A stretch of DNA of 64,000 nucleotides from Rhynchopus sp. YZ270_cl-10 (GCA_964035575.1 OZ037839.1:124001-188000); one strand, 5' to 3'; positions 7,199-53,740 are shown, counted from the first letter of the stretch. Notes: generated by a model from the letters alone, not told the origin. Numbers and translations: made by a program.

Positions 7199-9408
7199 CT
7201 ACACAGTTTCGTTCACAGTACCCTCGGTCTCAAAGGCAGGTTCGGTGGGTTTCTGAGAGAAAAGTTGTGGTCGACAGTGAGTGGAAGTGTGGTGTGGGGG
7301 TGACATACTGTGTCCTCAGCCTTCGAGCCCTTGCACAAAAAGAACGCAACCACAGCAATGATGATCACCACAAACGCACTGCACCCGAGAACAATACCAA
7401 CAATCGCACCAGTGCTGAGAGTGTCATCAGAGTCGTTGTTCTCCACACACGACCCAGACGAGAGCAGGTAACCAGACTCGCATGCAAGCGCAACACAGCC
7501 TCTGTTCACAAGCACCATATCGGTAGCCCCTGCAGCACTGCACTTCAGAGTCGGCACCACAGAGCTTCCGACAGTCATTGGTGTTGCAAACCCAGCAGCC
7601 ACTGCAGCCTCGTTCTTCTTCAGAGATCCCACAATCAGCTCAGACATGTCCTCCGTGGCCACAGTCGTGATGTCTGCATCCTCCACATCAACAACGAAGA
7701 TCGTCGACCCACACGACACAATCAAGGTGTCCGTTCGGCCCTTTGTCGTCTCCTCAATGGCTGTCCGCACTGCACCCTCAATTGCACCGTTCGACTGCTC
7801 GCAGTCCACGTTCCACTCCAGACGCAGCTTCACCTTCCCCCTCTTGGTCGGCTGCACACAGATGAAGAGGGTTTCCTTCGTCTTTTTCGTCACAGGGTTC
7901 ACAAACCCCGCCGACTCCGTGCACACACATTTGCTCTCAACACACGTCGCTGCGGAATCGTCGTAAGTCCTGCAGTCTGCGTCAACATCACACCAGTCAA
8001 CATCCTCCACAGTCAGCGGGGCATTCGTGGTCGGCACACTTGGAGTAGAGGTCTCTGGTGCTTGAGTGGGCACACTTGGCTCAGATGTCTCTGGTGCTTG
8101 AGTGGGTACACTAGGCTCAGATGTCTCTGGTGCTTGAGGCGGTACACTTGGCTCAGATGTGTCTGGTGCTTGAGTGGTCACTACATCCTTACACACGTAG
8201 TCGAACTCAAGTCTTGACACCCCGTAGTAGAGATCGTTTCTGACCTGCATAAATGCGGAACCGTTCAGCACAACATCCATGGGACTGTCGTAATAGGTGA
8301 AGCTCTTCTCCAAGGTGAAGTCTGTTCCACTTCCAGAATCGTTCCCTGATGAGTACAGGTACAGGAAGGAATATTGGCCCAGCTTCATGGTTGGGAACGA
8401 GATGACAACATCCTTGTCACACTCAATGTGCCAGCACTCCGTGTGGTATCTGTAGTGGTTCTGAAAGCTCCTGGCCTGAAATATCGCTTTCCCAGTCTCA
8501 TTGTTGCCAAAGTCGTTGTGCTTATCACAGAAGTTGTTCACACCAGGTGCAAGTGTGTTCGGCACAGTGGGTGGTGCTTGAGTGGTCGCATCCACACACA
8601 CGTAGTCGAACTCAAGTCTTGACCCGTTGTAGACATTGCTTTTGAACTGCACAAATGCAGAACCGTTCAGCACAACATCCATGGGACTGTCGTAATTCTC
8701 GAACGTCTTCTCCAAGGTGAAGTCTGTTCCATTGCCTGAATCGTTCCCTGATGAGTACAGGTGCAGGTAGGAGTTGCTGGACAGCTGCATGGTGGAGAAC
8801 GAGATGACAACATCCTTGTCACACTCAATGTGCCAGCACTCCGTGTGGCGCCTGTCGTAGTTCTGAAAGCTCACGTTCCCAGTCGGATTGTCCCCCAGGT
8901 CGTTGTGCTCCTCACAGAGGTGGTCCACACCAGGTGCACGTGTGTTCGGCGCAGCTGTGGGTGGTGCTTGAGTGGTCGCATCCACACACACGTAGTCGAA
9001 CTCAAGTCTTGACCCGGTGTAGTAATTGCTTCTGAACTGCACAAATGCGGAACCGTTCAGCACAACATCCATACTGTCGGAATAGGTGAACCTCTTCTGC
9101 AAGGTGAAGTCTGTTCCATTTCCAGAATCGTTCCCTGATGAGTACAGGTCCAGGTAGGAAAAGTAGGACAGCTGCATGGTGGAGAACGAGATGACAACAT
9201 CCTTGTCACACTCAATGTGCCAGCACTCCGTGTGGAGTTCGTCGTAGTTCTGAAAGCTCACGTTCCCAGTCGGATTGTTCAGGTCGTGGTGTTCGTCACA
9301 GACGTAGTTCACACCAGGTGCACGTGTGTCCGGCACATCAGTAGCGTACGTCATGATGTGTAACTCCGTGCTTACACACAGCAGCGCTGCCAAGCATGCG
9401 CGCAGCAT
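7199..9408 (-). CDS. CUB-like repeat type I membrane protein, paralog 1 (divergent); exons 9408-7309 and 7252-7199, ~717 aa
   Basis: Start MLRACLAALLCVS (signal-like). Three CUB-like repeats (ECWHIEC..VVISFS..QL..YLDLY..FVQFRS..LEFDYVC), VPTQAPETS stalk, Cys-rich region, TM GAIVGIVLGCSAFVVIIIAVVAFFLC. 56-nt GTATGT...CTCTCAG intron. The upstream ORF extension is microsatellite read-through. Confidence 0.88.
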
Positions 9409-9435
9409 TGTCTTTTGTTGTGTCCACAGAATATC

Positions 9436-9610: not shown

Positions 9611-9738
9611 GGGTTTATGATCGTACTCCTAGTGGTCAAAAGAAATCAAAATAAAAAACAATAACAACAAAGGGAGAGTGAGGGAGGAATCTGTATTCAA
9701 TTGGCACCGTTGCTGCGAAATGCACGTGCGGGGAGGAG

Positions 9739-10771
9739 CTAGAGACCCTTCGCGTCGGCCCCCACGACACAGAACATCACGTTCTCTGCACACCGCGGTA
9801 TGCGTGCGGACCCCGAGGATCTCTTCCTCGACCAAGAGTCCGCCGGCATCACCTCTGTCGAGATCCACTCCACGCGCAACGTCATGTTCGCCGCCTGCAG
9901 TCCGGAGAAGATTCTGCGCAGGATGCCGTTGCCCAGACGAGTCTTGGTGTGTCCCTTTTGCAGGACGAGTCGCACCGCATCGTTATCGACCCACAGGAGC
10001 ACGGACGGCCACCCGCTCCGGCCAGCACACCGCAACGCCTTCTCTGCCGCCCACAGCTCAAGGTGGAACATGTCTCCCGACAGGTACTCTCGCTCTCATG
10101 TACCCCATTCCGCCTGCGACAAAGCATCTCCCACTGTAGACGACACAAAACCCCAGCCCGTCGTCGAAGCGTCTGACCACACGGTCCCGGCAAAAACGGA
10201 CAACGACAGCGAAGGCGCGTGCAGCCATCTGTTCGGGGCGAGGTGAGCCTGTACGAGGCCCCTCACATCGCGTCTGACCCCCTCCGGAAGACGCACCACC
10301 GCATCCCAGCCGCACACATGGTCTGCAATACGCTTCGCCCACCTGCGGATGAATTGTATCGAGTCGCAGAAATGACATAGCTTCAGCTGCGCAACGTGCG
10401 TAACCCGGAAGAGGACTCCAAACATCGCCCACCACGCCAGCAACGTCGCCTCCTCCCTATCGCAAGACGCCGTTAAGCTGGAGAGCGCCTTCTGCTTCCA
10501 TGCCTCCGGAAAACGAAACGCAGCACACGGAACGTCCCACTCCAGACCGATGTACGACACACGCTGCGCGGGAGCAGCCTTACGTCTTGTGGTGCACCAC
10601 TTCAGAAAACCCCCTCTCTTTAGGCTGCCGGCCAACATGCGGACGTTCTCCAGACACAACGTACCATTTGTGAAATCGTCTGCTATTGCAACGTATCGAG
10701 GATGAGGACGTTACGATGCTGTTGACAACTGACGTGCCATCTGCACCGTGTCTCCTACTCCCAAGCCCCAA
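9739..10771 (-). mobile_element. Degenerate DIRS/Ngaro-type (tyrosine-recombinase retrotransposon) RT C-terminus plus RNase H remnant, variant A
   Basis: One frame, broken by a TGA at 10096-10098, reads VSYIGLEWD ... VWSDASTTGWG ... MFHLELWAA ... LWVDNDAV ... VEWISTEVMPADSWSR. These match the DIRS-type RNase H D-E-D-D motifs. No YxDD or recombinase is present. Confidence 0.8.
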
Positions 10772-12160
10772 GCAGCGACAGAGGAGGCAGAAGCAGCAAC
10801 ATCGCAGACAAAGAGAGGGTCGTGGCGGAGAAGTCTGTGCTCGCCTTCACTCCGGTGAGAACGGCACCACCTGCACAGAGAGTCAAGAAGACAGAAGTGG
10901 ACAAGGTGACTGAGGCGGACAGCACGAACAGGAGGAGGAGGGGGAAGAGAGAAGGAGAGGGGGGTAAATAGTCGCCCACCCCCTGTTTTATGTTTTGTGT
11001 TTTGTTAATGCACAATTCAAATACCACTCCTTGTGGGGTGCTTCTTTGTTGCCTTTTGGAAGGAATCTATTTTCCATCCCAAGGTATTGTATTGCGCTTC
11101 CTGACGTTGCCTCAACTCCACAAAAATATTAGGCAAAAATCCAGTGGTGGACTCCCAAAGAGAAGGGCTTGAAATACAACAAGAACAATGAAACAATGAA
11201 TGAAATACAACAAGAATTTAAGTTGGCCCGGGAGTTATTTTATGGGGAAAAATGTAATTGAAAACCCCGCAAAACCCGTATTTTGTGCCAACAATAAATC
11301 CCCGATGGGTTATTTCGAAAAAATTAATTTGATATACTGGGTGATCTACGAACGGGGGAGAGATTTTTTCACCAGCTCTCAGTAGCGTCTCGCAGGCTCT
11401 CACAGCTCACAGACTCTGAGAGCTTGTTAGAGCCAGTGAAAAAATCTCTCCCCGTTCAAATGGATCACACACCCAGAAAAAAAAGTCAAAACCAGAGTCA
11501 ACAGAAAAAAAAAGTGAAGTTATTAATGCAGGCACCTCCGACTGACCCACGTACGATGCCAGCCATCCGGATGAAAGCACAAAGTACCCTGCGGCCAACA
11601 ACAGAAGATGTAAAAAGGAACCCTAAGTAGACCTACCCGTACCGTAAGAGAACGACGGAGGCACATAACCGCTCGTCAGCGGGCGGCCCACCTTCCGTTA
11701 AAGAGTTGTGAGCTTACAGGTACTGCAGTTCGCTGCACCCAACGCTTGGTGCACGATAGTCTACAGTCAAAAAATATCTCCCCGTTCAAATGGATCCCAC
11801 CCAGAAAAAAAAGTCAAAACCAGAGTCAACAGAGAAATAAAAAAAAACAAAAGAGGATAAACGACTCCGGAAGTCAACTCAGGGCCACTACACCACGTTT
11901 TGAAATACCGCATTTCCACTTTTCTTTGAAAACTGATATGTTTACAAACAAGAGCCAAAAAGACAAGGAAAGAAAGTGAAAAAAAGTCCTGAAGTACAGA
12001 AGGTGATGTGAGAAGGGAGGAGCACAAATGAGGGTGAAAACAGTTAGAGCGACCGTAGCATTTCCCTTGTCAACTTCGGCACCGCTTAGTCACCTTGACC
12101 ATCATCGGTATCGCACAGCCTCAGGAAATAAAACTTGATTATCTCGTCAAGCGAGAGAGA

Positions 12161-14451
12161 CTACACAGTTTCGTTCACAGTACCCTCGGTCTCAAAGGCA
12201 GGTTCGGTGGGCTTCTGAGAGAAAAGTTGTGGTCGACAGTGAGTGGAAGTGTGGTGTGGGGGTGACATACTGTGTCCTCAGCCTTCGAGCCCTTGCACAA
12301 AAAGAACGCAACCACAGCAACGATGATCACCACAAACGCAGTGCACCCGAGAACAATACCAACAATCGCACCAGTGCTGAGAGTGTCATCAGAGTCGTTG
12401 TTCTCCACACACGACCCAGACGAGAGCAGGTAACCAGACTCGCATGCAAGCGCAACACAGCCTCCGTTGACAAGCACCATCTCGGTAGCCCCTGCAGCAC
12501 TGCACTTCAGAGTCGGCACCACAGAGCTTCCGACAGTCATCGGTGTTGCAAACCCAGCAGCCACTGCAGCCTCGTTCTTCTTCAGAGATCCCACAATCAG
12601 CTCAGACATGTCCTCCGTGGCCACAGTCGTGATGTCTGCATCCTCCACATCAACAACGAAGATCGTCGACCCACACGACACAACCAAGGTGTCCGTTCTG
12701 CCCTTTGTCGTCTCCTCAATGGCTGTCCGCACTGCACCCTCAATTGCACCGTTCGACTGCTCGCAGTCCACGTTCCACTCCAGACGCAGCTTCACCTTCC
12801 CCCTCTTGGTCGGCTGCACACAGATGAAGAGGGTTTCCTTCGTCTTTTTCGTCACAGGGTTCACAAACCCCGCCGACTCCGAGCACACACATTTGCTCTC
12901 AACACACGTCGCTGCGGAATCGTCGTAAGTCCTGCAGTCTGCGTCAACATCACACCAGTCAACATCCTTCACAGTCAGCGGGGCATTCGTGGTCGGCACA
13001 CTTGGAGTAGAGGTCTCTGGTGCTTGAGTGGGCACACTAGGCTTAGATGTCTCTGGTGCTTGAGTGGGCACACTAGGCTTAGATGTCTCTGGTGCTTGAG
13101 TGGGCACACTAGGCTTAGATGTCTCTGGTGCTTGAGTGGGCACCACAGTCTGTGCAGGAGGTGGCGGTGCTCTGCATTCGTACTGGAAGGCAAGGTACGA
13201 CCTCCTGTAGTAGCGACCGCTTCTGAACTGCACAAACGCAGAACCACTCACCACAAGCTCCACACCCTCGAAGCCAGTGGTGTACGACGACCAGTCATGC
13301 TCCAAGTTGAAGTTTGTGTCGTTCCCGGTCCCGGTCCCGGTCCCTGAGCTGTAGATAGACACGTAGGAAGAATAATACAACTGAATGTCAGAGAACTTCA
13401 GCACAACGTCGTAATCACACTCAATGTGCCAGCACTCCGTGTGGTAGCTGTCGTAGTTCTGAAAGCTCACGTTCCCAGTGCCTGTCAGGTCGTAGTGTTC
13501 TTCGCAGACGTAGTTCACACCAGGTGCACGTGTGTTTGGCGCAGGTGTTGGTGGTGCTGGAGTGGGCACCGCATCCGTACACACGTAGTCGAACTCAAGT
13601 CTTGACGACCCGCTCGTCAGCTTGCAACCGCTTCTGAACTGCACAAATGCAGAACCCTTCAGCACAACATCCGTGGGGCTGTCGTGTGTCATATTGTTGA
13701 ACCTCCTCTCCAAGGTGTAGTCTGTTCCATTTCCAGAATCGTTCCCTGTGTACAGGTCCAGGTAGGTAGTGCACTTCAGATGCAAGCGGGTGAACGAGAT
13801 GACAACATCCTTGTCACACTCAATGTGCCAGCACTCCCTGTGGTATGTGTCGTAGTTCTGAAAGCTCACGTGCCCAGTCTCATTGTCCCCCAGGTCGTTG
13901 TGCTCCTCACAGACGTAGTTCACACCAGGTGCACGTGTGTTTGGCACAGCTGTGGGTGGTGCTTGAGTGGGCACCACATCCGTGCACACGTAGTTGAACT
14001 CAAGCTTTGACCATCCGTTACGATAGCCTCTGAACTGCACAAATACAGAACCGTTCAGCACAACATCCATGGGACTGTCGTTAAAGTTGAACTTCTTCTC
14101 CAAGGCGAAGTCTGTTCTATTTCCAGAATCCTTCCCTGATGTGTACAGGTCCAGGTAGGCGCTGCTGTCCCGGTAATAGCCCCCCCGCAAGTAGGCTAAG
14201 TAGTGGTCCAGCTGTAAGCGGGAGAACGAGATGACAACATCCTTGTCACACTCAATGTGCCAGCACGCAACGTGGCCCCTGCTGTTGCTCTCAAAGCTCA
14301 CGTGCCCAGTCGCATTGTCCCCCAGGTCGTTGTGCTCCTCACAGACGTAGTTCACACCAGGTGCACGTGTGTCCGGCACATCAGTAGCGTACGTCATGAT
14401 GTGTAACTCCGTACTTACACACAGAAGCGCTGCCAAGCATGCGCGCAGCAT
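12161..14451 (-). CDS. CUB-like repeat type I membrane protein, paralog 2; intron 12215-12270, ~744 aa
   Basis: Intact ORF with signal peptide, 3 CUB-like domains, 33-bp stalk repeats and TM helix. Same splice signals as paralog 1. Confidence 0.9.
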
Positions 14452-14622
14452 TGTCTTTTGTTGTGTCAGCAGAATATCTGGTGTTGTGTTGTGGGGTTTA
14501 TGATCGTACTCTTAGAGGTCAAAAGAAATCAAATAAAAGCAAAAAGGGGAGAGAAGAATAAATGAGGGAGGAATCTGTATTCAATTGGCACCGTTGCTGC
14601 GAAATGCACGTGCGGGGAGGAG

Positions 14623-15643
14623 CTAGAGACCCTTCGCGGCGCTGCGCACCCTCTCGACACAGAACGTCACGTTCTCTGCACACCGCGGTATGCGTGCGGA
14701 CCCCGAGGATCTCTTCCGCCACCAAGAGTCCGCCGGCATCACCTCTGTCGAGATCCACTCCACGTGCAACGTCATCTTCGCCGCCTGCAGTCCGGAGAAG
14801 ATTCTGCGCAGGATGCCGTTGCCCAGACGAGTCTTGGTGTGTCCCTTTTGCAGGACGAGTCGCACCGCATCGTTATCGACCCACAGGAGCACGGACGGCC
14901 ACCCGCTCCTGCAGGCATACTGTAACGCCTTCTCTGCCGCCCACAGCTCTGTCTTGATGGAGTCGCAGAAATGAAACAGCTTCAGACGCGCAACGTACGT
15001 TACCCGGAAGAGGATTCCAATCGCAAGACGCCGTTAAGTTGGAGAGGGCCTTCCTCTTCCATGCCTCCGGGAAACGAAACACAGCACACGGAACGTCCCA
15101 CTCCAGTCCGATGTACGACACACGCTGCGCCGGAGCCTGCATGACCATGGCTTCGTTGACCTCACCCTTGCAGTACGCAATCCTGTATCGCACCGATCAC
15201 GATGAGGTCGTCCAGGCACACCGCAGATCCCAAGGCAAAAGCAACTCCCCTAGAAACACCTCCACGTGTTCTGCGCAATCAACGGGAGACAGCTTTGGAG
15301 GCTTCGGCAGTCGGGTGTTCACCGGCCTTCCATCCACGACAAGCCGCCTTACCAGCGGGTCAGCCTTAGGTACGTCGAATATTGCAACGACTCCCCTCTT
15401 TCTGTCACACTCACGGACACGTTCCATCACCCTCGAGGTAAGAGCTTCTGAATACGTCTTGTGGTGCACCACTTCAGAAAACCCCCTCTCTTTAGGCTGC
15501 CGGCCAACCTGCGGACGTTCTCCAGACACAACGTACCATTTGTGAAATCGTCTGCTATTGCAACGTATCGAGGATGAGGACGTTACGATGCTGTTGACAA
15601 CTGACGTGCCATCTGCACCGTGTCTCCTACTCCCAAGCCCCAA
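14623..15643 (-). mobile_element. DIRS-type RT/RNase H remnant, variant B (unit 1)
   Basis: RT N-terminal motifs IFDVPKADPLVRRLVVDGRPVN...WDLRCAW, then SYIGLEWD and the RNase H C-half. Internal deletions remove the YxDD core and the SDAS motif. Confidence 0.8.
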
Positions 15644-17030
15644 GCAGCGACAGAGGAGGCAGAAGCAGCAACATCGCAGACAAAGAGAGGGTCGTGGCGG
15701 AGAAGTCTGTGCTCGCCTTCACTCCGGTGAGAACGGCACCACCTGCACAGAGAGTCAAGAAGACAGAAGTGGACAAGGTGACTGAGGCGGACAGCACGAA
15801 CAGGAGGAGGAGGGGGAAGAGAGAAGGAGAGGGGGTAAATAGTCGCCCACCCCCTGTTTTATGTTTTGTGTTTTGTTAATGCACAATTCAAATACCACTC
15901 CTTGTGGGGTGCTTCTTTGTTGCCTTTTGGAAGGAATCTATTTTCCATCCCATGGTATTGTATTGCGCTTCCTGACGTTGCCTCAACTCCACCAAAATAT
16001 TAGGCAAAAATCCAGTGGTGGACTCCCAAAGAGAAGGGCTTGAAATACAACAAGAACAATGAAACAATGAATGAAATACAACAAGAATTTAAGTCGGCCC
16101 GGGAGTTATTTTATGGGGAAAATGTAATTGAAAACCCCGCAAAACCCGTATTTTGTGCCAACAATAAATCCCCGATGGGTTATTTCGAAAAAATTAATTT
16201 GATATACTGGGTGATCTACGAACGGGGGAGAGATTTTTTCACCAGCTCTCAGTAGCGTCTCGCAGGCTCTCACAGCTCACAGACTCTGAGAGCTTGTTAG
16301 AGCCAGTGAAAAAATCTCTCCCCGTTCAAATGGATCACACACCCAGAAAAAAAAGTCAAAACCAGAGTCAACAGAAAAAAAAAGTGAAGTTATTAATGCA
16401 GGCACCTCCGACTGACCCACGTACGATGCCAGCCATCCGGATGAAAGCACAAAGTACCCTGCGGCCAACAACAGAAGATGTAAAAAGGAACCCTAAGTAG
16501 ACCTACCCGTACCGTAAGAGAACGACGGAGGCACATAACCGCTCGTCAGCGGGCGGCCCACCTTCCGTTAAAGAGTTGTGAGCTTACAGGTACTGCAGTT
16601 CGCTGCACCCAACGCTTGGTGCACGATAGTCTACAGTCAAAAAATATCTCCCCGTTCAAATGGATCCCACCCAGAAAAAAAAGTCAAAACCAGAGTCAAC
16701 AGAGAAATAAAAAAAAACAAAAGAGGATAAACGACTCCGGAAGTCAACTCAGGGCCACTACACCACGTTTTGAAATACCGCATTTCCACTTTTCTTTGAA
16801 AACTGATATGTTTACAAACAAGAGCCAAAAAGACAAGGAAAGAAAGTGAAAAAAAGTCCTGAAGTACAGAAGGTGATGTGAGAAGGGAGGAGCACAAATG
16901 AGGGTGAAAACAGTTAGAGCGACCGTAGCATTTCCCTTGTCAACTTCGGCACCGCTTAGTCACCTTGACCATCATCGGTATCGCACAGCCTCAGGAAATA
17001 AAACTTGATTATCTCGTCAAGCGAGAGAGA

Positions 17031-19321
17031 CTACACAGTTTCGTTCACAGTACCCTCGGTCTCAAAGGCAGGTTCGGTGGGCTTCTGAGAGAAAAGTTGT
17101 GGTCGACAGTGAGTGGAAGTGTGGTGTGGGGGTGACATACTGTGTCCTCAGCCTTCGAGCCCTTGCACAAAAAGAACGCAACCACAGCAACGATGATCAC
17201 CACAAACGCAGTGCACCCGAGAACAATACCAACAATCGCACCAGTGCTGAGAGTGTCATCAGAGTCGTTGTTCTCCACACACGACCCAGACGAGAGCAGG
17301 TAACCAGACTCGCATGCAAGCGCAACACAGCCTCCGTTGACAAGCACCATCTCGGTAGCCCCTGCAGCACTGCACTTCAGAGTCGGCACCACAGAGCTTC
17401 CGACAGTCATCGGTGTTGCAAACCCAGCAGCCACTGCAGCCTCGTTCTTCTTCAGAGATCCCACAATCAGCTCAGACATGTCCTCCGTGGCCACAGTCGT
17501 GATGTCTGCATCCTCCACATCAACAACGAAGATCGTCGACCCACACGACACAACCAAGGTGTCCGTTCTGCCCTTTGTCGTCTCCTCAATGGCTGTCCGC
17601 ACTGCACCCTCAATTGCACCGTTCGACTGCTCGCAGTCCACGTTCCACTCCAGACGCAGCTTCACCTTCCCCCTCTTGGTCGGCTGCACACAGATGAAGA
17701 GGGTTTCCTTCGTCTTTTTCGTCACAGGGTTCACAAACCCCGCCGACTCCGAGCACACACATTTGCTCTCAACACACGTCGCTGCGGAATCGTCGTAAGT
17801 CCTGCAGTCTGCGTCAACATCACACCAGTCAACATCCTTCACAGTCAGCGGGGCATTCGTGGTCGGCACACTTGGAGTAGAGGTCTCTGGTGCTTGAGTG
17901 GGCACACTAGGCTTAGATGTCTCTGGTGCTTGAGTGGGCACACTAGGCTTAGATGTCTCTGGTGCTTGAGTGGGCACACTAGGCTTAGATGTCTCTGGTG
18001 CTTGAGTGGGCACCACAGTCTGTGCAGGAGGTGGCGGTGCTCTGCATTCGTACTGGAAGGCAAGGTACGACCTCCTGTAGTAGCGACCGCTTCTGAACTG
18101 CACAAACGCAGAACCACTCACCACAAGCTCCACACCCTCGAAGCCAGTGGTGTACGACGACCAGTCATGCTCCAAGTTGAAGTTTGTGTCGTTCCCGGTC
18201 CCGGTCCCGGTCCCTGAGCTGTAGATAGACACGTAGGAAGAATAATACAACTGAATGTCAGAGAACTTCAGCACAACGTCGTAATCACACTCAATGTGCC
18301 AGCACTCCGTGTGGTAGCTGTCGTAGTTCTGAAAGCTCACGTTCCCAGTGCCTGTCAGGTCGTAGTGTTCTTCGCAGACGTAGTTCACACCAGGTGCACG
18401 TGTGTTTGGCGCAGGTGTTGGTGGTGCTGGAGTGGGCACCGCATCCGTACACACGTAGTCGAACTCAAGTCTTGACGACCCGCTCGTCAGCTTGCAACCG
18501 CTTCTGAACTGCACAAATGCAGAACCCTTCAGCACAACATCCGTGGGGCTGTCGTGTGTCATATTGTTGAACCTCCTCTCCAAGGTGTAGTCTGTTCCAT
18601 TTCCAGAATCGTTCCCTGTGTACAGGTCCAGGTAGGTAGTGCACTTCAGATGCAAGCGGGTGAACGAGATGACAACATCCTTGTCACACTCAATGTGCCA
18701 GCACTCCCTGTGGTATGTGTCGTAGTTCTGAAAGCTCACGTGCCCAGTCTCATTGTCCCCCAGGTCGTTGTGCTCCTCACAGACGTAGTTCACACCAGGT
18801 GCACGTGTGTTTGGCACAGCTGTGGGTGGTGCTTGAGTGGGCACCACATCCGTGCACACGTAGTTGAACTCAAGCTTTGACCATCCGTTACGATAGCCTC
18901 TGAACTGCACAAATACAGAACCGTTCAGCACAACATCCATGGGACTGTCGTTAAAGTTGAACTTCTTCTCCAAGGCGAAGTCTGTTCTATTTCCAGAATC
19001 CTTCCCTGATGTGTACAGGTCCAGGTAGGCGCTGCTGTCCCGGTAATAGCCCCCCCGCAAGTAGGCTAAGTAGTGGTCCAGCTGTAAGCGGGAGAACGAG
19101 ATGACAACATCCTTGTCACACTCAATGTGCCAGCACGCAACGTGGCCCCTGCTGTTGCTCTCAAAGCTCACGTGCCCAGTCGCATTGTCCCCCAGGTCGT
19201 TGTGCTCCTCACAGACGTAGTTCACACCAGGTGCACGTGTGTCCGGCACATCAGTAGCGTACGTCATGATGTGTAACTCCGTACTTACACACAGAAGCGC
19301 TGCCAAGCATGCGCGCAGCAT
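17031..19321 (-). CDS. CUB-like membrane protein, paralog 3 (identical to 2); intron 17085-17140
   Basis: Identical translation at +4870. Confidence 0.88.
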
Positions 19322-19492
19322 TGTCTTTTGTTGTGTCAGCAGAATATCTGGTGTTGTGTTGTGGGGTTTATGATCGTACTCTTAGAGGTCAAAAGAAATC
19401 AAATAAAAGCAAAAAGGGGAGAGAAGAATAAATGAGGGAGGAATCTGTATTCAATTGGCACCGTTGCTGCGAAATGCACGTGCGGGGAGGAG

Positions 19493-20513
19493 CTAGAGAC
19501 CCTTCGCGGCGCTGCGCACCCTCTCGACACAGAACGTCACGTTCTCTGCACACCGCGGTATGCGTGCGGACCCCGAGGATCTCTTCCGCCACCAAGAGTC
19601 CGCCGGCATCACCTCTGTCGAGATCCACTCCACGTGCAACGTCATCTTCGCCGCCTGCAGTCCGGAGAAGATTCTGCGCAGGATGCCGTTGCCCAGACGA
19701 GTCTTGGTGTGTCCCTTTTGCAGGACGAGTCGCACCGCATCGTTATCGACCCACAGGAGCACGGACGGCCACCCGCTCCTGCAGGCATACTGTAACGCCT
19801 TCTCTGCCGCCCACAGCTCTGTCTTGATGGAGTCGCAGAAATGAAACAGCTTCAGACGCGCAACGTACGTTACCCGGAAGAGGATTCCAATCGCAAGACG
19901 CCGTTAAGTTGGAGAGGGCCTTCCTCTTCCATGCCTCCGGGAAACGAAACACAGCACACGGAACGTCCCACTCCAGTCCGATGTACGACACACGCTGCGC
20001 CGGAGCCTGCATGACCATGGCTTCGTTGACCTCACCCTTGCAGTACGCAATCCTGTATCGCACCGATCACGATGAGGTCGTCCAGGCACACCGCAGATCC
20101 CAAGGCAAAAGCAACTCCCCTAGAAACACCTCCACGTGTTCTGCGCAATCAACGGGAGACAGCTTTGGAGGCTTCGGCAGTCGGGTGTTCACCGGCCTTC
20201 CATCCACGACAAGCCGCCTTACCAGCGGGTCAGCCTTAGGTACGTCGAATATTGCAACGACTCCCCTCTTTCTGTCACACTCACGGACACGTTCCATCAC
20301 CCTCGAGGTAAGAGCTTCTGAATACGTCTTGTGGTGCACCACTTCAGAAAACCCCCTCTCTTTAGGCTGCCGGCCAACCTGCGGACGTTCTCCAGACACA
20401 ACGTACCATTTGTGAAATCGTCTGCTATTGCAACGTATCGAGGATGAGGACGTTACGATGCTGTTGACAACTGACGTGCCATCTGCACCGTGTCTCCTAC
20501 TCCCAAGCCCCAA
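19493..20513 (-). mobile_element. DIRS-type RT/RNase H remnant, variant B (unit 2)
   Basis: Identical ORF fragments at +4870. Confidence 0.8.
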
Positions 20514-21900
20514 GCAGCGACAGAGGAGGCAGAAGCAGCAACATCGCAGACAAAGAGAGGGTCGTGGCGGAGAAGTCTGTGCTCGCCTTCACTCCGGTGA
20601 GAACGGCACCACCTGCACAGAGAGTCAAGAAGACAGAAGTGGACAAGGTGACTGAGGCGGACAGCACGAACAGGAGGAGGAGGGGGAAGAGAGAAGGAGA
20701 GGGGGTAAATAGTCGCCCACCCCCTGTTTTATGTTTTGTGTTTTGTTAATGCACAATTCAAATACCACTCCTTGTGGGGTGCTTCTTTGTTGCCTTTTGG
20801 AAGGAATCTATTTTCCATCCCATGGTATTGTATTGCGCTTCCTGACGTTGCCTCAACTCCACCAAAATATTAGGCAAAAATCCAGTGGTGGACTCCCAAA
20901 GAGAAGGGCTTGAAATACAACAAGAACAATGAAACAATGAATGAAATACAACAAGAATTTAAGTCGGCCCGGGAGTTATTTTATGGGGAAAATGTAATTG
21001 AAAACCCCGCAAAACCCGTATTTTGTGCCAACAATAAATCCCCGATGGGTTATTTCGAAAAAATTAATTTGATATACTGGGTGATCTACGAACGGGGGAG
21101 AGATTTTTTCACCAGCTCTCAGTAGCGTCTCGCAGGCTCTCACAGCTCACAGACTCTGAGAGCTTGTTAGAGCCAGTGAAAAAATCTCTCCCCGTTCAAA
21201 TGGATCACACACCCAGAAAAAAAAGTCAAAACCAGAGTCAACAGAAAAAAAAAGTGAAGTTATTAATGCAGGCACCTCCGACTGACCCACGTACGATGCC
21301 AGCCATCCGGATGAAAGCACAAAGTACCCTGCGGCCAACAACAGAAGATGTAAAAAGGAACCCTAAGTAGACCTACCCGTACCGTAAGAGAACGACGGAG
21401 GCACATAACCGCTCGTCAGCGGGCGGCCCACCTTCCGTTAAAGAGTTGTGAGCTTACAGGTACTGCAGTTCGCTGCACCCAACGCTTGGTGCACGATAGT
21501 CTACAGTCAAAAAATATCTCCCCGTTCAAATGGATCCCACCCAGAAAAAAAAGTCAAAACCAGAGTCAACAGAGAAATAAAAAAAAACAAAAGAGGATAA
21601 ACGACTCCGGAAGTCAACTCAGGGCCACTACACCACGTTTTGAAATACCGCATTTCCACTTTTCTTTGAAAACTGATATGTTTACAAACAAGAGCCAAAA
21701 AGACAAGGAAAGAAAGTGAAAAAAAGTCCTGAAGTACAGAAGGTGATGTGAGAAGGGAGGAGCACAAATGAGGGTGAAAACAGTTAGAGCGACCGTAGCA
21801 TTTCCCTTGTCAACTTCGGCACCGCTTAGTCACCTTGACCATCATCGGTATCGCACAGCCTCAGGAAATAAAACTTGATTATCTCGTCAAGCGAGAGAGA

Positions 21901-24191
21901 CTACACAGTTTCGTTCACAGTACCCTCGGTCTCAAAGGCAGGTTCGGTGGGCTTCTGAGAGAAAAGTTGTGGTCGACAGTGAGTGGAAGTGTGGTGTGGG
22001 GGTGACATACTGTGTCCTCAGCCTTCGAGCCCTTGCACAAAAAGAACGCAACCACAGCAACGATGATCACCACAAACGCAGTGCACCCGAGAACAATACC
22101 AACAATCGCACCAGTGCTGAGAGTGTCATCAGAGTCGTTGTTCTCCACACACGACCCAGACGAGAGCAGGTAACCAGACTCGCATGCAAGCGCAACACAG
22201 CCTCCGTTGACAAGCACCATCTCGGTAGCCCCTGCAGCACTGCACTTCAGAGTCGGCACCACAGAGCTTCCGACAGTCATCGGTGTTGCAAACCCAGCAG
22301 CCACTGCAGCCTCGTTCTTCTTCAGAGATCCCACAATCAGCTCAGACATGTCCTCCGTGGCCACAGTCGTGATGTCTGCATCCTCCACATCAACAACGAA
22401 GATCGTCGACCCACACGACACAACCAAGGTGTCCGTTCTGCCCTTTGTCGTCTCCTCAATGGCTGTCCGCACTGCACCCTCAATTGCACCGTTCGACTGC
22501 TCGCAGTCCACGTTCCACTCCAGACGCAGCTTCACCTTCCCCCTCTTGGTCGGCTGCACACAGATGAAGAGGGTTTCCTTCGTCTTTTTCGTCACAGGGT
22601 TCACAAACCCCGCCGACTCCGAGCACACACATTTGCTCTCAACACACGTCGCTGCGGAATCGTCGTAAGTCCTGCAGTCTGCGTCAACATCACACCAGTC
22701 AACATCCTTCACAGTCAGCGGGGCATTCGTGGTCGGCACACTTGGAGTAGAGGTCTCTGGTGCTTGAGTGGGCACACTAGGCTTAGATGTCTCTGGTGCT
22801 TGAGTGGGCACACTAGGCTTAGATGTCTCTGGTGCTTGAGTGGGCACACTAGGCTTAGATGTCTCTGGTGCTTGAGTGGGCACCACAGTCTGTGCAGGAG
22901 GTGGCGGTGCTCTGCATTCGTACTGGAAGGCAAGGTACGACCTCCTGTAGTAGCGACCGCTTCTGAACTGCACAAACGCAGAACCACTCACCACAAGCTC
23001 CACACCCTCGAAGCCAGTGGTGTACGACGACCAGTCATGCTCCAAGTTGAAGTTTGTGTCGTTCCCGGTCCCGGTCCCGGTCCCTGAGCTGTAGATAGAC
23101 ACGTAGGAAGAATAATACAACTGAATGTCAGAGAACTTCAGCACAACGTCGTAATCACACTCAATGTGCCAGCACTCCGTGTGGTAGCTGTCGTAGTTCT
23201 GAAAGCTCACGTTCCCAGTGCCTGTCAGGTCGTAGTGTTCTTCGCAGACGTAGTTCACACCAGGTGCACGTGTGTTTGGCGCAGGTGTTGGTGGTGCTGG
23301 AGTGGGCACCGCATCCGTACACACGTAGTCGAACTCAAGTCTTGACGACCCGCTCGTCAGCTTGCAACCGCTTCTGAACTGCACAAATGCAGAACCCTTC
23401 AGCACAACATCCGTGGGGCTGTCGTGTGTCATATTGTTGAACCTCCTCTCCAAGGTGTAGTCTGTTCCATTTCCAGAATCGTTCCCTGTGTACAGGTCCA
23501 GGTAGGTAGTGCACTTCAGATGCAAGCGGGTGAACGAGATGACAACATCCTTGTCACACTCAATGTGCCAGCACTCCCTGTGGTATGTGTCGTAGTTCTG
23601 AAAGCTCACGTGCCCAGTCTCATTGTCCCCCAGGTCGTTGTGCTCCTCACAGACGTAGTTCACACCAGGTGCACGTGTGTTTGGCACAGCTGTGGGTGGT
23701 GCTTGAGTGGGCACCACATCCGTGCACACGTAGTTGAACTCAAGCTTTGACCATCCGTTACGATAGCCTCTGAACTGCACAAATACAGAACCGTTCAGCA
23801 CAACATCCATGGGACTGTCGTTAAAGTTGAACTTCTTCTCCAAGGCGAAGTCTGTTCTATTTCCAGAATCCTTCCCTGATGTGTACAGGTCCAGGTAGGC
23901 GCTGCTGTCCCGGTAATAGCCCCCCCGCAAGTAGGCTAAGTAGTGGTCCAGCTGTAAGCGGGAGAACGAGATGACAACATCCTTGTCACACTCAATGTGC
24001 CAGCACGCAACGTGGCCCCTGCTGTTGCTCTCAAAGCTCACGTGCCCAGTCGCATTGTCCCCCAGGTCGTTGTGCTCCTCACAGACGTAGTTCACACCAG
24101 GTGCACGTGTGTCCGGCACATCAGTAGCGTACGTCATGATGTGTAACTCCGTACTTACACACAGAAGCGCTGCCAAGCATGCGCGCAGCAT
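21901..24191 (-). CDS. CUB-like membrane protein, paralog 4 (identical to 2); intron 21955-22010
   Basis: Identical translation at +9740. Confidence 0.88.
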
Positions 24192-24362
24192 TGTCTTTTG
24201 TTGTGTCAGCAGAATATCTGGTGTTGTGTTGTGGGGTTTATGATCGTACTCTTAGAGGTCAAAAGAAATCAAATAAAAGCAAAAAGGGGAGAGAAGAATA
24301 AATGAGGGAGGAATCTGTATTCAATTGGCACCGTTGCTGCGAAATGCACGTGCGGGGAGGAG

Positions 24363-25383
24363 CTAGAGACCCTTCGCGGCGCTGCGCACCCTCTCGACAC
24401 AGAACGTCACGTTCTCTGCACACCGCGGTATGCGTGCGGACCCCGAGGATCTCTTCCGCCACCAAGAGTCCGCCGGCATCACCTCTGTCGAGATCCACTC
24501 CACGTGCAACGTCATCTTCGCCGCCTGCAGTCCGGAGAAGATTCTGCGCAGGATGCCGTTGCCCAGACGAGTCTTGGTGTGTCCCTTTTGCAGGACGAGT
24601 CGCACCGCATCGTTATCGACCCACAGGAGCACGGACGGCCACCCGCTCCTGCAGGCATACTGTAACGCCTTCTCTGCCGCCCACAGCTCTGTCTTGATGG
24701 AGTCGCAGAAATGAAACAGCTTCAGACGCGCAACGTACGTTACCCGGAAGAGGATTCCAATCGCAAGACGCCGTTAAGTTGGAGAGGGCCTTCCTCTTCC
24801 ATGCCTCCGGGAAACGAAACACAGCACACGGAACGTCCCACTCCAGTCCGATGTACGACACACGCTGCGCCGGAGCCTGCATGACCATGGCTTCGTTGAC
24901 CTCACCCTTGCAGTACGCAATCCTGTATCGCACCGATCACGATGAGGTCGTCCAGGCACACCGCAGATCCCAAGGCAAAAGCAACTCCCCTAGAAACACC
25001 TCCACGTGTTCTGCGCAATCAACGGGAGACAGCTTTGGAGGCTTCGGCAGTCGGGTGTTCACCGGCCTTCCATCCACGACAAGCCGCCTTACCAGCGGGT
25101 CAGCCTTAGGTACGTCGAATATTGCAACGACTCCCCTCTTTCTGTCACACTCACGGACACGTTCCATCACCCTCGAGGTAAGAGCTTCTGAATACGTCTT
25201 GTGGTGCACCACTTCAGAAAACCCCCTCTCTTTAGGCTGCCGGCCAACCTGCGGACGTTCTCCAGACACAACGTACCATTTGTGAAATCGTCTGCTATTG
25301 CAACGTATCGAGGATGAGGACGTTACGATGCTGTTGACAACTGACGTGCCATCTGCACCGTGTCTCCTACTCCCAAGCCCCAA
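24363..25383 (-). mobile_element. DIRS-type RT/RNase H remnant, variant B (unit 3)
   Basis: Identical ORF fragments. Confidence 0.8.
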
Positions 25384-29061: not shown

Positions 29062-29232
29062 TGTCTTTTGTTGTGTCAGCAGAATATCTGGTGTTGTGTT
29101 GTGGGGTTTATGATCGTACTCTTAGAGGTCAAAAGAAATCAAATAAAAGCAAAAAGGGGAGAGAAGAATAAATGAGGGAGGAATCTGTATTCAATTGGCA
29201 CCGTTGCTGCGAAATGCACGTGCGGGGAGGAG

Positions 29233-33931: not shown

Positions 33932-34102
33932 TGTCTTTTGTTGTGTCAGCAGAATATCTGGTGTTGTGTTGTGGGGTTTATGATCGTACTCTTAGAGGTC
34001 AAAAGAAATCAAATAAAAGCAAAAAGGGGAGAGAAGAATAAATGAGGGAGGAATCTGTATTCAATTGGCACCGTTGCTGCGAAATGCACGTGCGGGGAGG
34101 AG

Positions 34103-41370: not shown

Positions 41371-41573
41371 TGGGTACTGGGTACTGGGTACTGGGTACTG
41401 GGTACTGGGTACTGGGTACTGGGTACTGGGTACTGGGTACTGGGTACTGGGTACTGGGTACTGGGTACTGGGTACTGGGTACTGGGTACTGGGTACTGGG
41501 TACTGGGTACTGGGTACTGGGTACTGGGTACTGGGTACTGGGTACTGGGTACTGGGTACTGGGTACTGGGTAC
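41371..41573 (-). repeat. 7-bp satellite (TGGGTAC)n, ~29 units, inside the TIR element
   Basis: Visible array. The homologous site at ~57598-57621 has only ~3 units. Confidence 0.97.
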
Positions 41574-49982: not shown

Positions 49983-52900
49983 TCACAGCTTCCACACCAC
50001 AAGGGTGCCGTCACGGCTCACAGTTGCCAGGCGTGTGCCATCGGGGGAGAAGTCCAGGCGTGGCAGGACAGCCTGCGAGTGTCCCAGCAGGTCGTGCAGC
50101 ACAGACCCGTTGTGCGACCACACCATCACGTCACCCTCGCCCACAGCAGCAATCATCTTCCCGTCGCGTGAGAACTTGCTGTCGTGCACAGCACCCGACA
50201 GCATGCTCAGAGACACACCGTCCACAGCACTGCCGTCACCAATCGAGCTCCCGGGCAGCTGCGACACAAGGATCGTCCCGTCGCTCATCCCACGCAGGAG
50301 CGCGTTCCCACCAAAGGACGAGAAGGACAGTGCCGTCACACGTGCGGCAACAGAGGGCAGCTCAACAGCAGGTATCCCGTCCAGCCCCCACACAGTCGTC
50401 ACCTCGTCCACCTCAGAACCGCGCACTGTCGCAAGGTGTGCACCGTCCACAGAGAACCCCACGTTGCGTGCATGGTGGTTGATCACAGACGACGCCTTCG
50501 TCCTGTCCGACGCAAGCATGTCGAACACACGTGTGCGTGCATCCTGTCCACCTCCGCTCACCACGTAGCGCCCGTCCCTCGTGAACTCCACACGGTGCAC
50601 AGGTGTGCTCCCCGATGCAGACATGTCCACCAGGGTTGCCGACATCACACCTGTCACAGCGTCGCACACAACCACACGCCCGCCCTCCCCAGCAAGCGCC
50701 ACCAGGTTGTTGTCTGGCGAGAACGCAATGTCGTGCACCCTGAAGCCGTCTACACAGCCCAGCTGTCCCACCCGCACACCCGTGCGTGCGTCAAACACAC
50801 GCACAAAACGGTCTGCTGACCCTGTCGCCACACGACGTCCGTCCCACGAGAACGCCACCGACAGCAGGCGTGCAGGGTGTCTCACCTTAAACGCACACGC
50901 CGATCTTCCCTGCCCGCAACGCTGTGGCACTGTGTCCACCCCACACTGCTCCTGTGGAGGAGGTGTCGGTGCTCTGCATTCGTACTGGAAGGCAAGGTAC
51001 GACCTCCCGTGGTAGTAAGTGCTTCTGAACTGCACAAACGCAGAACCACTCACCACAAGCTCCACACCCTCGAAGCCGGTGGTGTACGAGGACCAGTCAT
51101 GCTCCAAGTTGAAGTTTGTGTCGTTCCCAGTCCCGGTCCCTGAGCTGTAGATGGACACGTAGGAATAGTAGTACAACTGAATGTCAGAGAACTTCAGCAC
51201 AACTTCGTAATCACACTCAATGTGCCAGCACTCCGTGTGGGAGCTGTTGTAGTTCTGAAAGCTCACGTTCCCAGTCGCATTGTCCCCCAGGTCGTTGTGC
51301 TCCTCACAGACGTAGTTCACACCAGGTGCACGTGTGTTTGGCGCAGGTGTGGGTGGTGCTTGAGTGGTCGCATCCACACACACGTAGTTGAACTCAAGTC
51401 TTGACCCGGTGTAGTAAGTGCTACTGAACTGCACAAATGCAGATCCGCTCAGCACAACATCCATGGGATTGTGGTAATAGGTGAACCTCTTCTCAAAGGT
51501 GAAGTCTGTTCCATTTCCAGAATCCTTCCCTGTGTACAGGTCCAGGTAGGAATAGGTGTCCAGCTGCATGGTGGAGAACGAGATGAAAACCTCATTGTCA
51601 CACTCAATGTGCCAGCACTCCGTGTGGTAGCTGTCGTAGTTCTGAAAGCTCACGTTCCCAGTCACATTGTCCCCCAGGTCGTTGTGCTCCTCACAGACGT
51701 AGCTCACACCAGGTGCACGTGTGTTCGGCACAGCTGTGGGTGGTGCTTGAGTGGTCACCACATCCTTACACACGTAGTTGAACTCAACTCTAAGAAACGC
51801 GTAGTACCGATCGCTTCTCACCTGCACAAATGCAGAACCATGCACCACAACATCCATGGGACTGTCGTAATTGTTCAACCTCTTCACCAAGGTGAAGTCT
51901 GTTCCAGAATCGTTCCCTGATGTGTACACGTCCACAAAGGAATAGGTGTACAGCTGCAGGTTGGAGAACGAGATGACAACATCCTTTTCACACTCAATGT
52001 GCCAGCACCTCGTACGTGTATAGTATCCGCCGGGGTTGAGAGAAATCTGAAAGCTCGCGTTCCCAGTCGCATTGCCCAGGTCGCTGTGCTCCTGACAGAT
52101 GTAGTTCACGCCAGGTGCGCGTGTGCTTGGCACATCTGTTGGTGGTGCTTGAGTGGTCGCATCCACACACACGTAGTTGAACTCAAGTCTTGACCACCCG
52201 TTGTAGTAAGTGCTTCTGAACTGCACAAATGCAGAACCGTTCAGCACAACATCCATGGGACTGTCGTAATTGTTAAACCTCTTCTCCAAGGTGAAGTCTG
52301 TTCCATTTCCAGAATCCTTCCCTGTGTACAGGTCCAGGTAGTTATAACTGTCAGCTGCAGATGAGAGAACGAGATGACAACATTCTTGTCACACTCAATG
52401 TGCCAGCACTCCGTGTGGTAGTTGACGTAGTTCTGAAAGCTTACGTTACCAGTCTTGTTGATTCCCAGATCGGTGTGTCCCTCACAGACGTAGTTCACAA
52501 CAGATGCACGTGTGGGCGGTACAGCTGTGGGTGGTGCTTGAGTGGTCGCATCCACACACACGTAGTTGAACTCAAGTCTTGACCACCCGCTGTAGTAAGT
52601 GCTTCTGAACTGCACAAATGCAGAACCGTTCAGCACAACATCCCTGAAACTCTCGTAAGGGCTGAATGCCTTCACCAAGGTGAAGTCTGTTCTATTTCCA
52701 GAATCATTCCCTGATGTGTACAGGTGCAGATAAGATCCTGAGTACAGCTGCAGGTGAGAGAACGAGATGACAACATCCTTGTCACACTCAATGTGCCAGC
52801 ACTCCGTGTGGTATGTGTCGTAGTTCTGAAAGCTCACGTTCCCAGTCACATTGTCACCCAGGTCGTTGTGCTCCTCACAGACGTAGTTCACACCAGGTGC

Positions 52901-53740
52901 ACGTGTGTCCGGCGCCTCAGAAGCGTAAGGGACACAGGCAAACGACGACGACCATTCACCCTCGCCTGTCTCGTTCGTGCTGTTTCTTTGACACTGCAGA
53001 AAGCCCTGTGTTGCGTACCCAGGCTCGCACTCCACAGAGCACGCTTGTCCGACGTAAGAATTATTGCAGTCGTAACCAGGCAGCACGTGGTCAAGCAGGT
53101 GTGCAGGAGGCGACGAGCAACGTGAGCTTTGACCTGCGAAGGGCAGGTTCCAGTGCACCTCGCTCGACATCGCACAAGGCATGTGTGCTTCGTTTGCGTT
53201 CCACGTCGCGCTGAGTGGTTCTGAGCCGTTGCTGGGATTGCCGTCAAGCCACACCTCATGCACACCAAGGTTGTCTGTCTTCACAATTGCAGCATGCCAC
53301 GAGGAGAGTATGCCGCCAGGGTAGCACAGCTCGGGATAATCCTGGCCAACCCGAATCTCACCGAGAAGGGGAGTTGTGCCTGATTGGTAGCACACCACGC
53401 TGCTGCTGTTGGGGAAGGCCTGGCGATATGCACCGTCCAGATACAGGGAGATGTTATTGCAGGTTTGAAAGATGTTCGCAATGTTGTCCACAGTTCCCGG
53501 ATGTATTTTAAACAAGGTCCACGCTTTGCAGGACTGAAAGTCGGTTGTGCTGAGTGCCGCACCACTCACTGGGTCCACGACGTTGAGTACAGCCGTCGTG
53601 TCCGTCTCAGTGTGGGAGTGGAACGTCCCAAACCAGAGGGTGACGTAGCCAGGCTGCTCCTCTGAGTGTGAAGAGCACACCGTCATGATGTGTGCCTCCG
53701 TGCTTATACACAGCAGCGCTGCCAAGCATGCGCGCAGCAT
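49983..53740 (-). CDS. Paralog 8: signal peptide, unknown domain, sushi/CCP-like domain, 5 CUB-like domains and a 7-repeat WD40; ~1,252 aa if the 1-bp frameshift at ~52351 is corrected (otherwise a pseudogene)
   Basis: Two overlapping ORFs (53740-52241 and 52289-49983) join by restoring one G (CTG GAC AGT TAT AAC TAC CTG GAC = LDSYNYLD). Seven WD-like repeats from VAFSWDGRRVATGSADRFVRVFD to LLGHSQAV..FSPDGTRLATVSRDGTLVVWKL. Confidence 0.8.

What the first reader, a model, noticed from the sequence alone, without database searches (positions are those of the whole stretch)
7199..53740. Candidate antibody-like variable receptor system: CUB-like scaffold with four hypervariable, Tyr/Ser/Gly-rich loops
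Seen: 13 distinct CUB-like repeats share a conserved framework (TGNVSF..ECWHIECDKDVVISFS.LQL..YLDLY..GTDFTL.K.F..DSPMDVVLNGSAFVQFR..SRLEF.YVC; the terminal DYDVVLKF-type repeat is a more divergent subtype). Variation concentrates in four loops. L1: YDELH / YDRRH / HYRYH / NSRGH / YDTYH / SLNPGGYYT. L2: SYFS / SSNS / GQYS / DHYLAYLRGGYYRDSSA / KCTT / YSGS. L3: TYSD / ENYD / NFND / NNMTHD / SPYE. L4: SNYYTG / NDLYYGV / GYRNGW / SGCKLTSGS / SGRYYRR / SDRYYAF. Loops differ in length as well as sequence, while the membrane-proximal ~260 aa differ at only ~7 positions between paralogs 1 and 2. Established: Tyr/Ser/Gly enrichment is the hallmark of antibody CDRs, and CUB domains bind ligand through loops at one end of the beta-sandwich. 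Inference: these loops form one diversified binding face, giving a surface recognition repertoire (prey, pathogen, self/non-self) or variant antigen family. I know of no described system like this in a microbial eukaryote, but could not search.
Basis: partly seen in the sequence, partly recalled or inferred. Interest (0 to 1): 0.88.

Follow-up and report, generated by a model that had tools for sequence, protein, structure and literature searches.

The report
Antibody-like variable CUB receptors, germline-encoded
A single-celled eukaryote, likely a diplonemid flagellate, carries a large gene family of predicted surface and secreted proteins whose repeated CUB domains keep a fixed frame but vary in four tyrosine-rich loops predicted to form one binding face, likely an inherited (not somatically shuffled) repertoire for gripping many different targets.

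Summary
Eight minus-strand genes carry 26 repeats, 13 distinct; five genes are identical tandem copies and two repeats are broken. The repeats fold as CUB domains (top 22 structural hits are CUB, Z 13.3-9.3). The four variable loops are the CUB odd loops L3/L5/L7/L9, the ligand end; the calcium-site motif is absent in 96 of 96 close repeats. Entropy is 1.72 bits there against 0.60 in the opposite loops; Tyr 17% against 0.5%. Gly is not enriched. At least 23 related proteins give 93 loop combinations. Similar heads sit on four kinds of tail, and the same stalk also carries carbohydrate-binding-like heads with the same frame-and-loop pattern. Selection evidence is mixed: omega 2.5-3.4 with a shared silent rate, 1.3-2.0 (not significant) with a free one; strands and stalk are also near 0.7-1. 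There is no sign of somatic or retroelement-driven diversification, and odd loops vary in animal CUBs too. Best reading: a germline repertoire of multivalent binding proteins, probably for prey or substrate surfaces. It works like a paratope library but is not an antibody system. No description found in ten literature searches. Ligand and expression pattern untested.

The parts
7213..9408 (-). Gene 1: signal-like N-terminus, 3 CUB repeats (8986-9318, 8596-8934, 8191-8547), Pro/Thr linker, stalk, membrane helix, short tail
   Evidence: P0009
7213..8052 (-). Constant stalk of gene 1: Cys-rich EGF-like part, ferredoxin-like (SEA-like, inferred) domain, second Cys-rich part, membrane helix; 93-100% identical in 20 proteins
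   Evidence: EB module E=0.026, below cut-off; best Z 7.4, common fold only
12175..14451 (-). Gene 2 (first of five identical copies): CUB repeats 13984-14361, 13579-13929, 13174-13524 (terminal subtype), stalk, membrane helix
   Evidence: P0001
14158..14208 (-). Long L2 (CUB L5) loop of gene 2 repeat 1, predicted to form a protruding beta-hairpin
   Evidence: strands 53-58 and 61-66, pLDDT 75-78
17045..19321 (-). Gene 3, identical to gene 2
21915..24191 (-). Gene 4, identical to gene 2
26785..29061 (-). Gene 5, identical to gene 2
31655..33931 (-). Gene 6, identical to gene 2
10581..37876 (.). Tandem array of a 4,870-bp unit (gene plus spacer), 99.97% identical
   Evidence: unit-specific short-read depth about 5-6 times single-copy pieces in 3 of 5 runs, 2-3 times in 2 (hint only)
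36525..38666 (-). Gene 7: chimeric; new repeat 1 (38199-38576), repeat 2 cut short by an in-frame deletion near 37876, then identical to gene 2
   Evidence: its 5' part matches P0004, which has an intact repeat 2
49983..53740 (-). Gene 8: signal-like N-terminus, unknown domain plus sushi-like module, 5 CUB repeats, WD40 propeller, no membrane helix; one-base frameshift near 52351
   Evidence: P0032 and P0016
14519..15718 (-). Broken retroelement-like remnant (RT/RNase H fragments) carried in each tandem unit; a related piece at 9629-10710
   Evidence: RVT_3 E=0.077, below cut-off; DIRS-type RNase H motifs recognised from recall

Best explanation
These genes are members of a germline-encoded family of tandem-CUB proteins, predicted to be cell-surface or secreted, whose four variable loops are predicted to form one Tyr-rich binding face, and which likely serve as a diversified repertoire of multivalent receptors for varied outside surfaces such as prey, food particles or hosts. 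Shown: the CUB fold (by prediction and structural match), the loss of the Ca2+-site motif, variation concentrated in the odd loops, repeat arrays of 1-12 units on several tails, tandem amplification and a chimeric gene. Inferred mechanism: an ancestral Ca2+-type CUB adhesin (kept in distant paralogs and in Rhynchopus euleeides) lost its acidic site; the freed face became aromatic; unequal crossing-over multiplied repeats and genes and swapped heads between tails; point changes and loop insertions were then favoured on the face while conversion kept frame and stalk alike. Several different repeats in one chain would give avidity and breadth. Ligand, location and expression pattern are untested.
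For: Fold: top 22 VIA rows are CUB, Z 13.3-9.3, best rmsd 1.8 A over 100 residues; top 15 Foldseek rows CUB. Face: variable and conserved loops alternate in the model; L2 and L4 align with TSG-6 Glu183/Asp191 and Asp232-Val235, which chelate one ion; odd loops form the ligand site in solved CUBs. Ca2+ motif 0 of 96 close repeats vs 15 of 38 distant. Tyr 17% vs 0.5%; 93 distinct four-loop combinations in 96 repeats. N-glycan sequons on 16 of 251 face Asn vs 250 of 291 opposite-loop Asn. Selection: M2a vs M1a LRT 49, 8 of 27 face codons vs 2 of 79 others with posterior >0.9; face omega 2.5-3.4 with shared silent rate; face changes 38/40/26 at codon positions 1/2/3 vs 6/8/15 in opposite loops. 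Modularity: the same stalk bears CUB heads in 8 proteins, carbohydrate-binding-like heads in 11 and a Cys-rich head in 1; the 25 CBM-like repeats also show an invariant frame with variable loops.
Against: With a free silent rate face omega is 1.3-2.0, p=0.06-0.32; with silent-rate classes the site test falls to LRT 6.8, p=0.03. Pairwise counting gives face 1.03-1.19, strands 0.98-1.10; six closest pairs give face pN/pS 1.35 (p=0.14), 1.05 at worst. The stalk shows 8 replacement to 3 silent changes, omega 0.88, so its constancy may be recency, not constraint. Only 11-13 repeats had DNA. Recombination signal (PHI-like p=0.027 DNA, 0.005 protein; 0.16 without the terminal subtype) inflates such tests. 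Many loops stay near one consensus (commonest L1 in 18 of 96). Odd loops vary in CUBs generally, and ADAMTS13 CUBs lack Ca2+ and do not bind through them. Five identical copies add dose, not diversity.
Confidence: 0.55

Rival explanations
1. Relaxed constraint plus gene conversion: the odd loops, freed by loss of the Ca2+ site, drift neutrally while conversion homogenises the frame; the proteins form a coat or bind one common ligand through an ancestral Tyr-rich consensus.
For: Face silent rate 1.8-2.5 times that of strands in free-rate fits, omega not significantly above 1; strands and stalk near 0.7-1; 2 of 13 repeats broken; consensus-like loops common.
Against: Where the residue is unchanged, silent difference is equal in face and opposite loops (0.087 vs 0.084); deficit of third-position change on the face (p=0.04); gene 2 vs gene 7 repeat 1 differ by about 20 replacement and 1 silent change on the face; a second, unrelated scaffold shows the same pattern.
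Confidence: 0.2
2. Variant surface antigen: the loops change to escape recognition by viruses, predators or a host, with one or few genes expressed at a time.
For: Exposed face changes fastest; membrane and GPI-like tails; close sequences occur in runs filed under seven organism codes, which could mean life on or in other organisms.
Against: A Tyr/Trp-rich, sequon-poor face fits binding better than hiding; stalk and frame stay nearly invariant; 16 proteins end in WD40 without anchor; no expression data. Four of the seven organism codes (D-G) hold only small shares of the sequence.
Confidence: 0.12
3. Self/non-self or mating recognition in the manner of Dictyostelium TgrB1/TgrC1, with strain-specific repertoires binding one another.
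For: Gene birth, chimerism and differing gene sets on two contigs that share only P0001 among the proteins seen; an unstable tandem locus as described for tgr.
Against: No paired receptor-ligand arrangement: all eight genes lie on one strand; diversity seen is among repeats and paralogs; strain polymorphism not measured.
Confidence: 0.08
4. True antibody-like system with somatic diversification (rearrangement, templated conversion or retroelement-driven mutation) in each clone.
For: A retroelement-like remnant lies beside each gene; many codons on the face differ at 2-3 positions.
Against: The remnant is broken; no base bias on the face (alternative alleles per site A 1.31, T 1.35, G 1.06, C 0.88); five copies are identical; exact matches to gene 2 junctions recur in several runs.
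Confidence: 0.05

Closest known systems
Tandem Ca2+-binding CUB proteins (cubilin, PCPE-1, neuropilin, C1r/C1s/MASP, TSG-6; Pfam PF00431)
   Same: Same jelly-roll fold (Z 11-13), tandem arrays, ligand end formed by odd loops.
   Different: Acidic Ca2+ motif absent in 96 of 96 close repeats; window proteins do not score on PF00431; the face is hypervariable among near-identical frames; long Pro/Thr linkers; protist host.
Diplonemid Ca2+-type CUB surface protein of Rhynchopus euleeides (EukProt, P0063/P0073) and unnamed astacin-CUB and CUB-LRR relatives
   Same: CUB repeats, Pro/Thr linker, same Cys-rich stalk and membrane helix; 24% identity over 490 residues, E=3e-17.
   Different: Keep the TE..D and SD motif and pass PF00431; no expansion or hypervariability shown.
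Antibody/VHH/VNAR paratopes (recalled)
   Same: Fixed beta-sandwich frame, loops varying in sequence and length at one end, Tyr-rich; a long hairpin loop; new Cys pairs in L2+L4 or within L4 in 5 of 260 repeats; like heads on anchored and anchorless tails.
   Different: CUB not Ig fold; four loops; Gly not enriched; germline paralogs and tandem repeats, no somatic step seen.
Dictyostelium tgr family (PMC12745789, abstract)
   Same: Polymorphic protist surface family in an unstable locus with duplication and recombination.
   Different: Other fold (Ig-like, recalled), known self-recognition role and paired genes; here role unknown and diversity lies among repeats.
Protist variant surface families (VSG, VSP, i-antigens; recalled)
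   Same: Multigene surface family with conserved membrane-proximal end.
   Different: Variation confined to one face of a conserved domain; mutually exclusive expression untested.

Membership tests
CUB domain superfamily | About 110-residue antiparallel jelly-roll beta-sandwich matching solved CUBs | tested here: met
   AF2 model pLDDT 82; top 22 VIA rows CUB, Z 13.3-9.3; Foldseek E 3e-10
CUB domain superfamily | Sequence link to PF00431 | tested here: inconclusive
   0 of 5 window proteins hit; profile reaches 6 of 20 distant proteins that pass the cut-off; TSG-6 CUB E=0.006; atlas score 0.93
Ca2+-binding CUB subclass | Acidic residues in L5 and L9 | tested here: not met
   0 of 96 close repeats vs 15 of 38 distant, by a motif of my own; site defined
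Antibody/adaptive receptors | Immunoglobulin fold | tested here: not met
   Best matches are CUB
Antibody/adaptive receptors | Hypervariable loops clustered at one end of a fixed frame | tested here: met
Antibody/adaptive receptors | Tyr/Ser/Gly enrichment | tested here: inconclusive
   Tyr yes, Ser mild, Gly no
Antibody/adaptive receptors | Somatic diversification and clonal expression | not testable with these tools
   Only contigs of runs, no raw reads; identical tandem copies argue against
Diversity-generating retroelement | Intact RT and adenine-specific change | tested here: not met
   Remnant broken; no A bias
Germline families under diversifying selection | dN/dS above 1 at the binding face | tested here: inconclusive
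   2.5-3.4 shared silent rate; 1.3-2.0 free, not significant; counting 1.0-1.35
Variant surface antigens | Mutually exclusive, switching expression | not testable with these tools
   No single-cell or clone RNA data
Tgr-type allorecognition | Allelic polymorphism between strains and allele-specific binding | not testable with these tools
   Paralogs and alleles cannot be told apart in short contigs

The most novel reading that the evidence does not exclude
A single-celled flagellate has independently built a modular variable-receptor system: two unrelated beta-sandwich scaffolds (CUB and CBM-like) with positively selected paratope-like loops, strung in combinatorial arrays and swapped among membrane, GPI-like and secreted WD40 tails, used as an innate-immune-like or prey-specific repertoire that may differ from cell to cell.
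Probability: 0.25. Interest if true: 0.88.

Novelty: new variant of a known kind. Interest (0 to 1): 0.66.

Why it matters
How abundant marine flagellates such as diplonemids choose prey, substrates or hosts is an open question; the D. papillatum genome paper's main text has no hit for 'surface protein', 'cell surface' or 'adhesion'. This family gives concrete candidate recognition molecules with a defined variable face to test by loop swaps and binding screens. It also suggests that a Tyr-rich variable face on a fixed beta-sandwich arose outside the Ig fold, and offers a natural, Ca2+-independent CUB scaffold that tolerates loop inserts of up to 13 residues.

Tried and rejected
No whole genome is held, so paralog DNA was limited to the window; that the unnamed ENA proteins come from one genome is inferred from identity and shared contig lengths. 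Pfam on window proteins gave no CUB hit; PDB sequence search with the narrow profile gave 0, with the CBM-headed P0026 0. The metagenome scan gave 1 locus of 100 candidate stretches, L001, a chance match on the opposite strand of a bacterial gene. Stalk fold: no Foldseek match at E<=0.001, best Z 7.4; 'SEA-like' stays an inference. The domain tree had no support for a single loss of the Ca2+ site (support 0.09-0.21). Expression: run X2 loses depth just upstream of the start codon relative to X3, and a marine metatranscriptome holds 96-98% alike stalk pieces at depth 2.7-5; library type is unrecorded for X2 and DNA carry-over is not excluded, so this is a hint only. Retroelement-driven mutation and triplet slippage as main drivers were rejected from base spectrum and loop DNA. 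Three look-ups of earlier scan notes returned nothing. No complex prediction was run: no candidate partner.

Full report
Observation. The window holds eight intronless minus-strand genes between 7213 and 53740. Genes 2-6 are identical copies in a 4,870-bp unit. Gene 7 is a chimera: its first repeat and most of its second match P0004, then an in-frame deletion joins it to gene 2 sequence. Gene 8 has an extra N-terminal domain, a sushi-like module, five repeats with a frameshift in the second, and a WD40 propeller without anchor. So four distinct genes and 11 intact distinct repeats. A unit-specific exact contig piece has about 5-6 times the depth of single-paralog pieces in runs X1, X2, X3 and 2-3 times in X4, X5; the tool warns that depth is no copy number, so this only hints that the array is real.

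Fold. Pfam misses the repeats (0 of 5 proteins). The ESM atlas gives CUB clusters at 0.93 (recognition score 2297, just under its own bar). A profile of 11 repeats finds 32 proteins among 1.84 billion representatives; 6 of the 20 distant ones pass the PF00431 cut-off. A two-repeat AlphaFold model (41 sequences, pLDDT 82) matches CUB domains in the top 15 Foldseek rows and top 22 VIA rows, Z 13.3-9.3. The fold is CUB.

One face. In the model the four variable loops alternate with four conserved loops along an antiparallel sandwich, which puts them at one end. PMC8051872 (passages) states that odd loops L3, L5, L7, L9 point one way, hold the Ca2+ site and form the ligand site in other tandem CUBs; it also says they are the most divergent part of CUBs generally and that ADAMTS13 CUBs lack Ca2+ and bind elsewhere, which tempers the inference. 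PMC6372009 (passages) shows ligand lysines bound at that site in PCPE-1. I had no coordinates, so distances were not measured.

Family. Three searches (32 of 7,995, 36 of 7,992 and 20 of 4,087 scored candidates) plus searches gave 75 proteins; 61 hold 260 distinct full-length repeats, 96 of them (23 proteins) at least 58% identical to gene 1 repeat 1, a cut I chose. Clusters are at 90% identity, so this undercounts. With classes set from the structure, entropy is 1.72 bits on the face, 0.60 in opposite loops, 0.73 in strands; 93 distinct four-loop combinations occur in 96 repeats; loop lengths run 6-12, 5-19, 8-15 and 7-12. Even among pairs under 5% apart in strands, the face differs at 18% and opposite loops at 10%. 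Tyr is 17.0% vs 0.5%; Gly 6.7% vs 16.9%. The Ca2+ motif is absent from 96 of 96 close repeats, present in 15 of 38 distant ones. Sequons mark 16 of 251 face Asn against 250 of 291 in opposite loops (few, inherited positions). New Cys pairs occur in 5 of 260 repeats, twice across L2 and L4 (one origin), three times inside L4.

Modules. Tails by motif: the gene 1 stalk with membrane helix in 8 CUB proteins, WD40 without anchor in 16, a simple membrane helix in 8, a GPI-like end in 5; 24 more were not classed. The stalk, 93-100% identical in 20 proteins, also carries a Cys-rich head once and, in 11 proteins, repeats that the atlas places among galactose-binding/CBM4-9-like folds (0.92-0.94; Pfam CBM_4_9_1 below cut-off). 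Twenty-five such repeats show an almost invariant frame with several variable, length-changing segments; their position on the fold was not modelled. The terminal repeat subtype precedes both WD40 and stalk tails, a trace of head-tail swapping. The stalk model (pLDDT 70) has a ferredoxin-like centre, best Z 7.4.

Organism. The only named relative, in 1 of 20 non-window clusters looked up, is a Rhynchopus euleeides protein of the same layout (24% over 490 residues). With intronless same-strand genes this points to a diplonemid-like euglenozoan; it is an inference.

Selection. DNA was available for 11-13 window repeats only. Codon models with one silent rate give face omega 2.5-3.4 (p<1e-7), opposite loops 0.6-0.7, strands 0.7-0.8; with free silent rates face omega is 1.3-2.0 (p 0.06-0.32) and strands 0.9-1.0. 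Silent-rate heterogeneity is significant on ungapped columns (p=0.01), not on the strict set (p=0.47). A blind site model is strong (LRT 49; 8 of 27 face vs 2 of 79 other codons) but falls to LRT 6.8 (p=0.03) with silent-rate classes. Pairwise counting gives 1.03-1.19 on the face and about 1 in strands; the stalk has 8 replacement and 3 silent changes. Six disjoint closest pairs give face pN 0.186 against frame pS about 0.10 (p=0.001, but pairs were chosen on frame similarity, which biases this) and face pN/pS 1.35, p=0.14. Recombination is detectable and inflates such tests. The face clearly changes about three times faster in protein than the rest; that selection drives it is likely but not shown.

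Mechanism. Shown: duplication of repeats (39 of 96 have their nearest neighbour in the same protein), tandem gene amplification, chimerism, loop indels, no base bias, a broken retroelement remnant. Inferred: a Ca2+-type CUB adhesin lost its acidic site, the face became aromatic and diversified in the germline, and arrays of differing repeats bind varied outside surfaces with avidity; prey or substrate glycans are my leading guess because the same stalk carries CBM-like heads and CBMs are expanded in D. papillatum (PMC10161547, passages). Confidence 0.55; drift with conversion 0.2; antigenic escape 0.12; self-recognition 0.08; somatic system 0.05.

Literature. No paper holds 'diplonemid' with 'CUB domain' or 'CUB domain', 'protist', 'hypervariable'; 'CUB domain', 'hypervariable', 'positive selection', 'tandem' gave one ascidian review (listing); one search listed four papers on other parasites. 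In 'cub' matched journal DOIs in the one paper where I saw all four hits (PMC13615690); the five hits in PMC10161547 were not displayed, and its supplements were not read. Dictyostelium tgr (PMC12745789, abstract) is a described protist parallel. The library lacks most subscription journals.

Verdict. A real, apparently undescribed variant: a paratope-like variable face on a Ca2+-free CUB scaffold within a modular protist surface family. It works like a germline receptor library; it is not an antibody system by the tests available. Interest 0.66.

Noticed in passing
window 11434-11841 (and each tandem unit; related copy 47371-47610): A roughly 250-bp element between 80-bp direct repeats (91% alike), downstream of each gene; read depth hundreds of times that of neighbours, so a very high-copy short interspersed repeat, also seen in an RNA run.
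   Followed up: partly
P0018-P0023, P0025-P0027, P0074, P0075 (not in window; most on one 806,888-bp contig): CBM-like repeat family on the same stalk with invariant frame and variable segments; deserves its own study.
   Followed up: partly
window 49983-50900: Secreted-type CUB array ending in a Cys-bearing WD40 propeller with no anchor; 16 such proteins found. Role unexplained.
   Followed up: partly
window 52900-53740: N-terminal domain of about 200 residues with no Pfam hit, followed by a sushi-like module (E=0.002, below cut-off); shared by P0010, P0012, P0013, P0035, P0040 and others.
   Followed up: no
window genes 1, 2, 7, 8: Window proteins are recorded on two different contigs (P0009 on 335,888 bp; P0016 and P0032 on 1,487,168 bp; P0001 on two) and gene 7 is not in the collection under either start; haplotype or assembly difference, unexplained.
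   Followed up: partly
window 1556-2681, 39699-39948, 41371-41573, 54421-55512: Long 7- and 9-bp microsatellite arrays flanking the gene cluster.
   Followed up: no
P0061, P0064, P0070, P0071, P0056: Astacin-EGF-CUB and CUB-LRR proteins with intact Ca2+-type CUBs among the unnamed relatives, tolloid-like layouts in a probable protist.
   Followed up: no
window 40710-41255 / 58462-58991 and 43067-44344 / 56212-57478: Inverted dispersed repeats, 90-94% alike.
   Followed up: no
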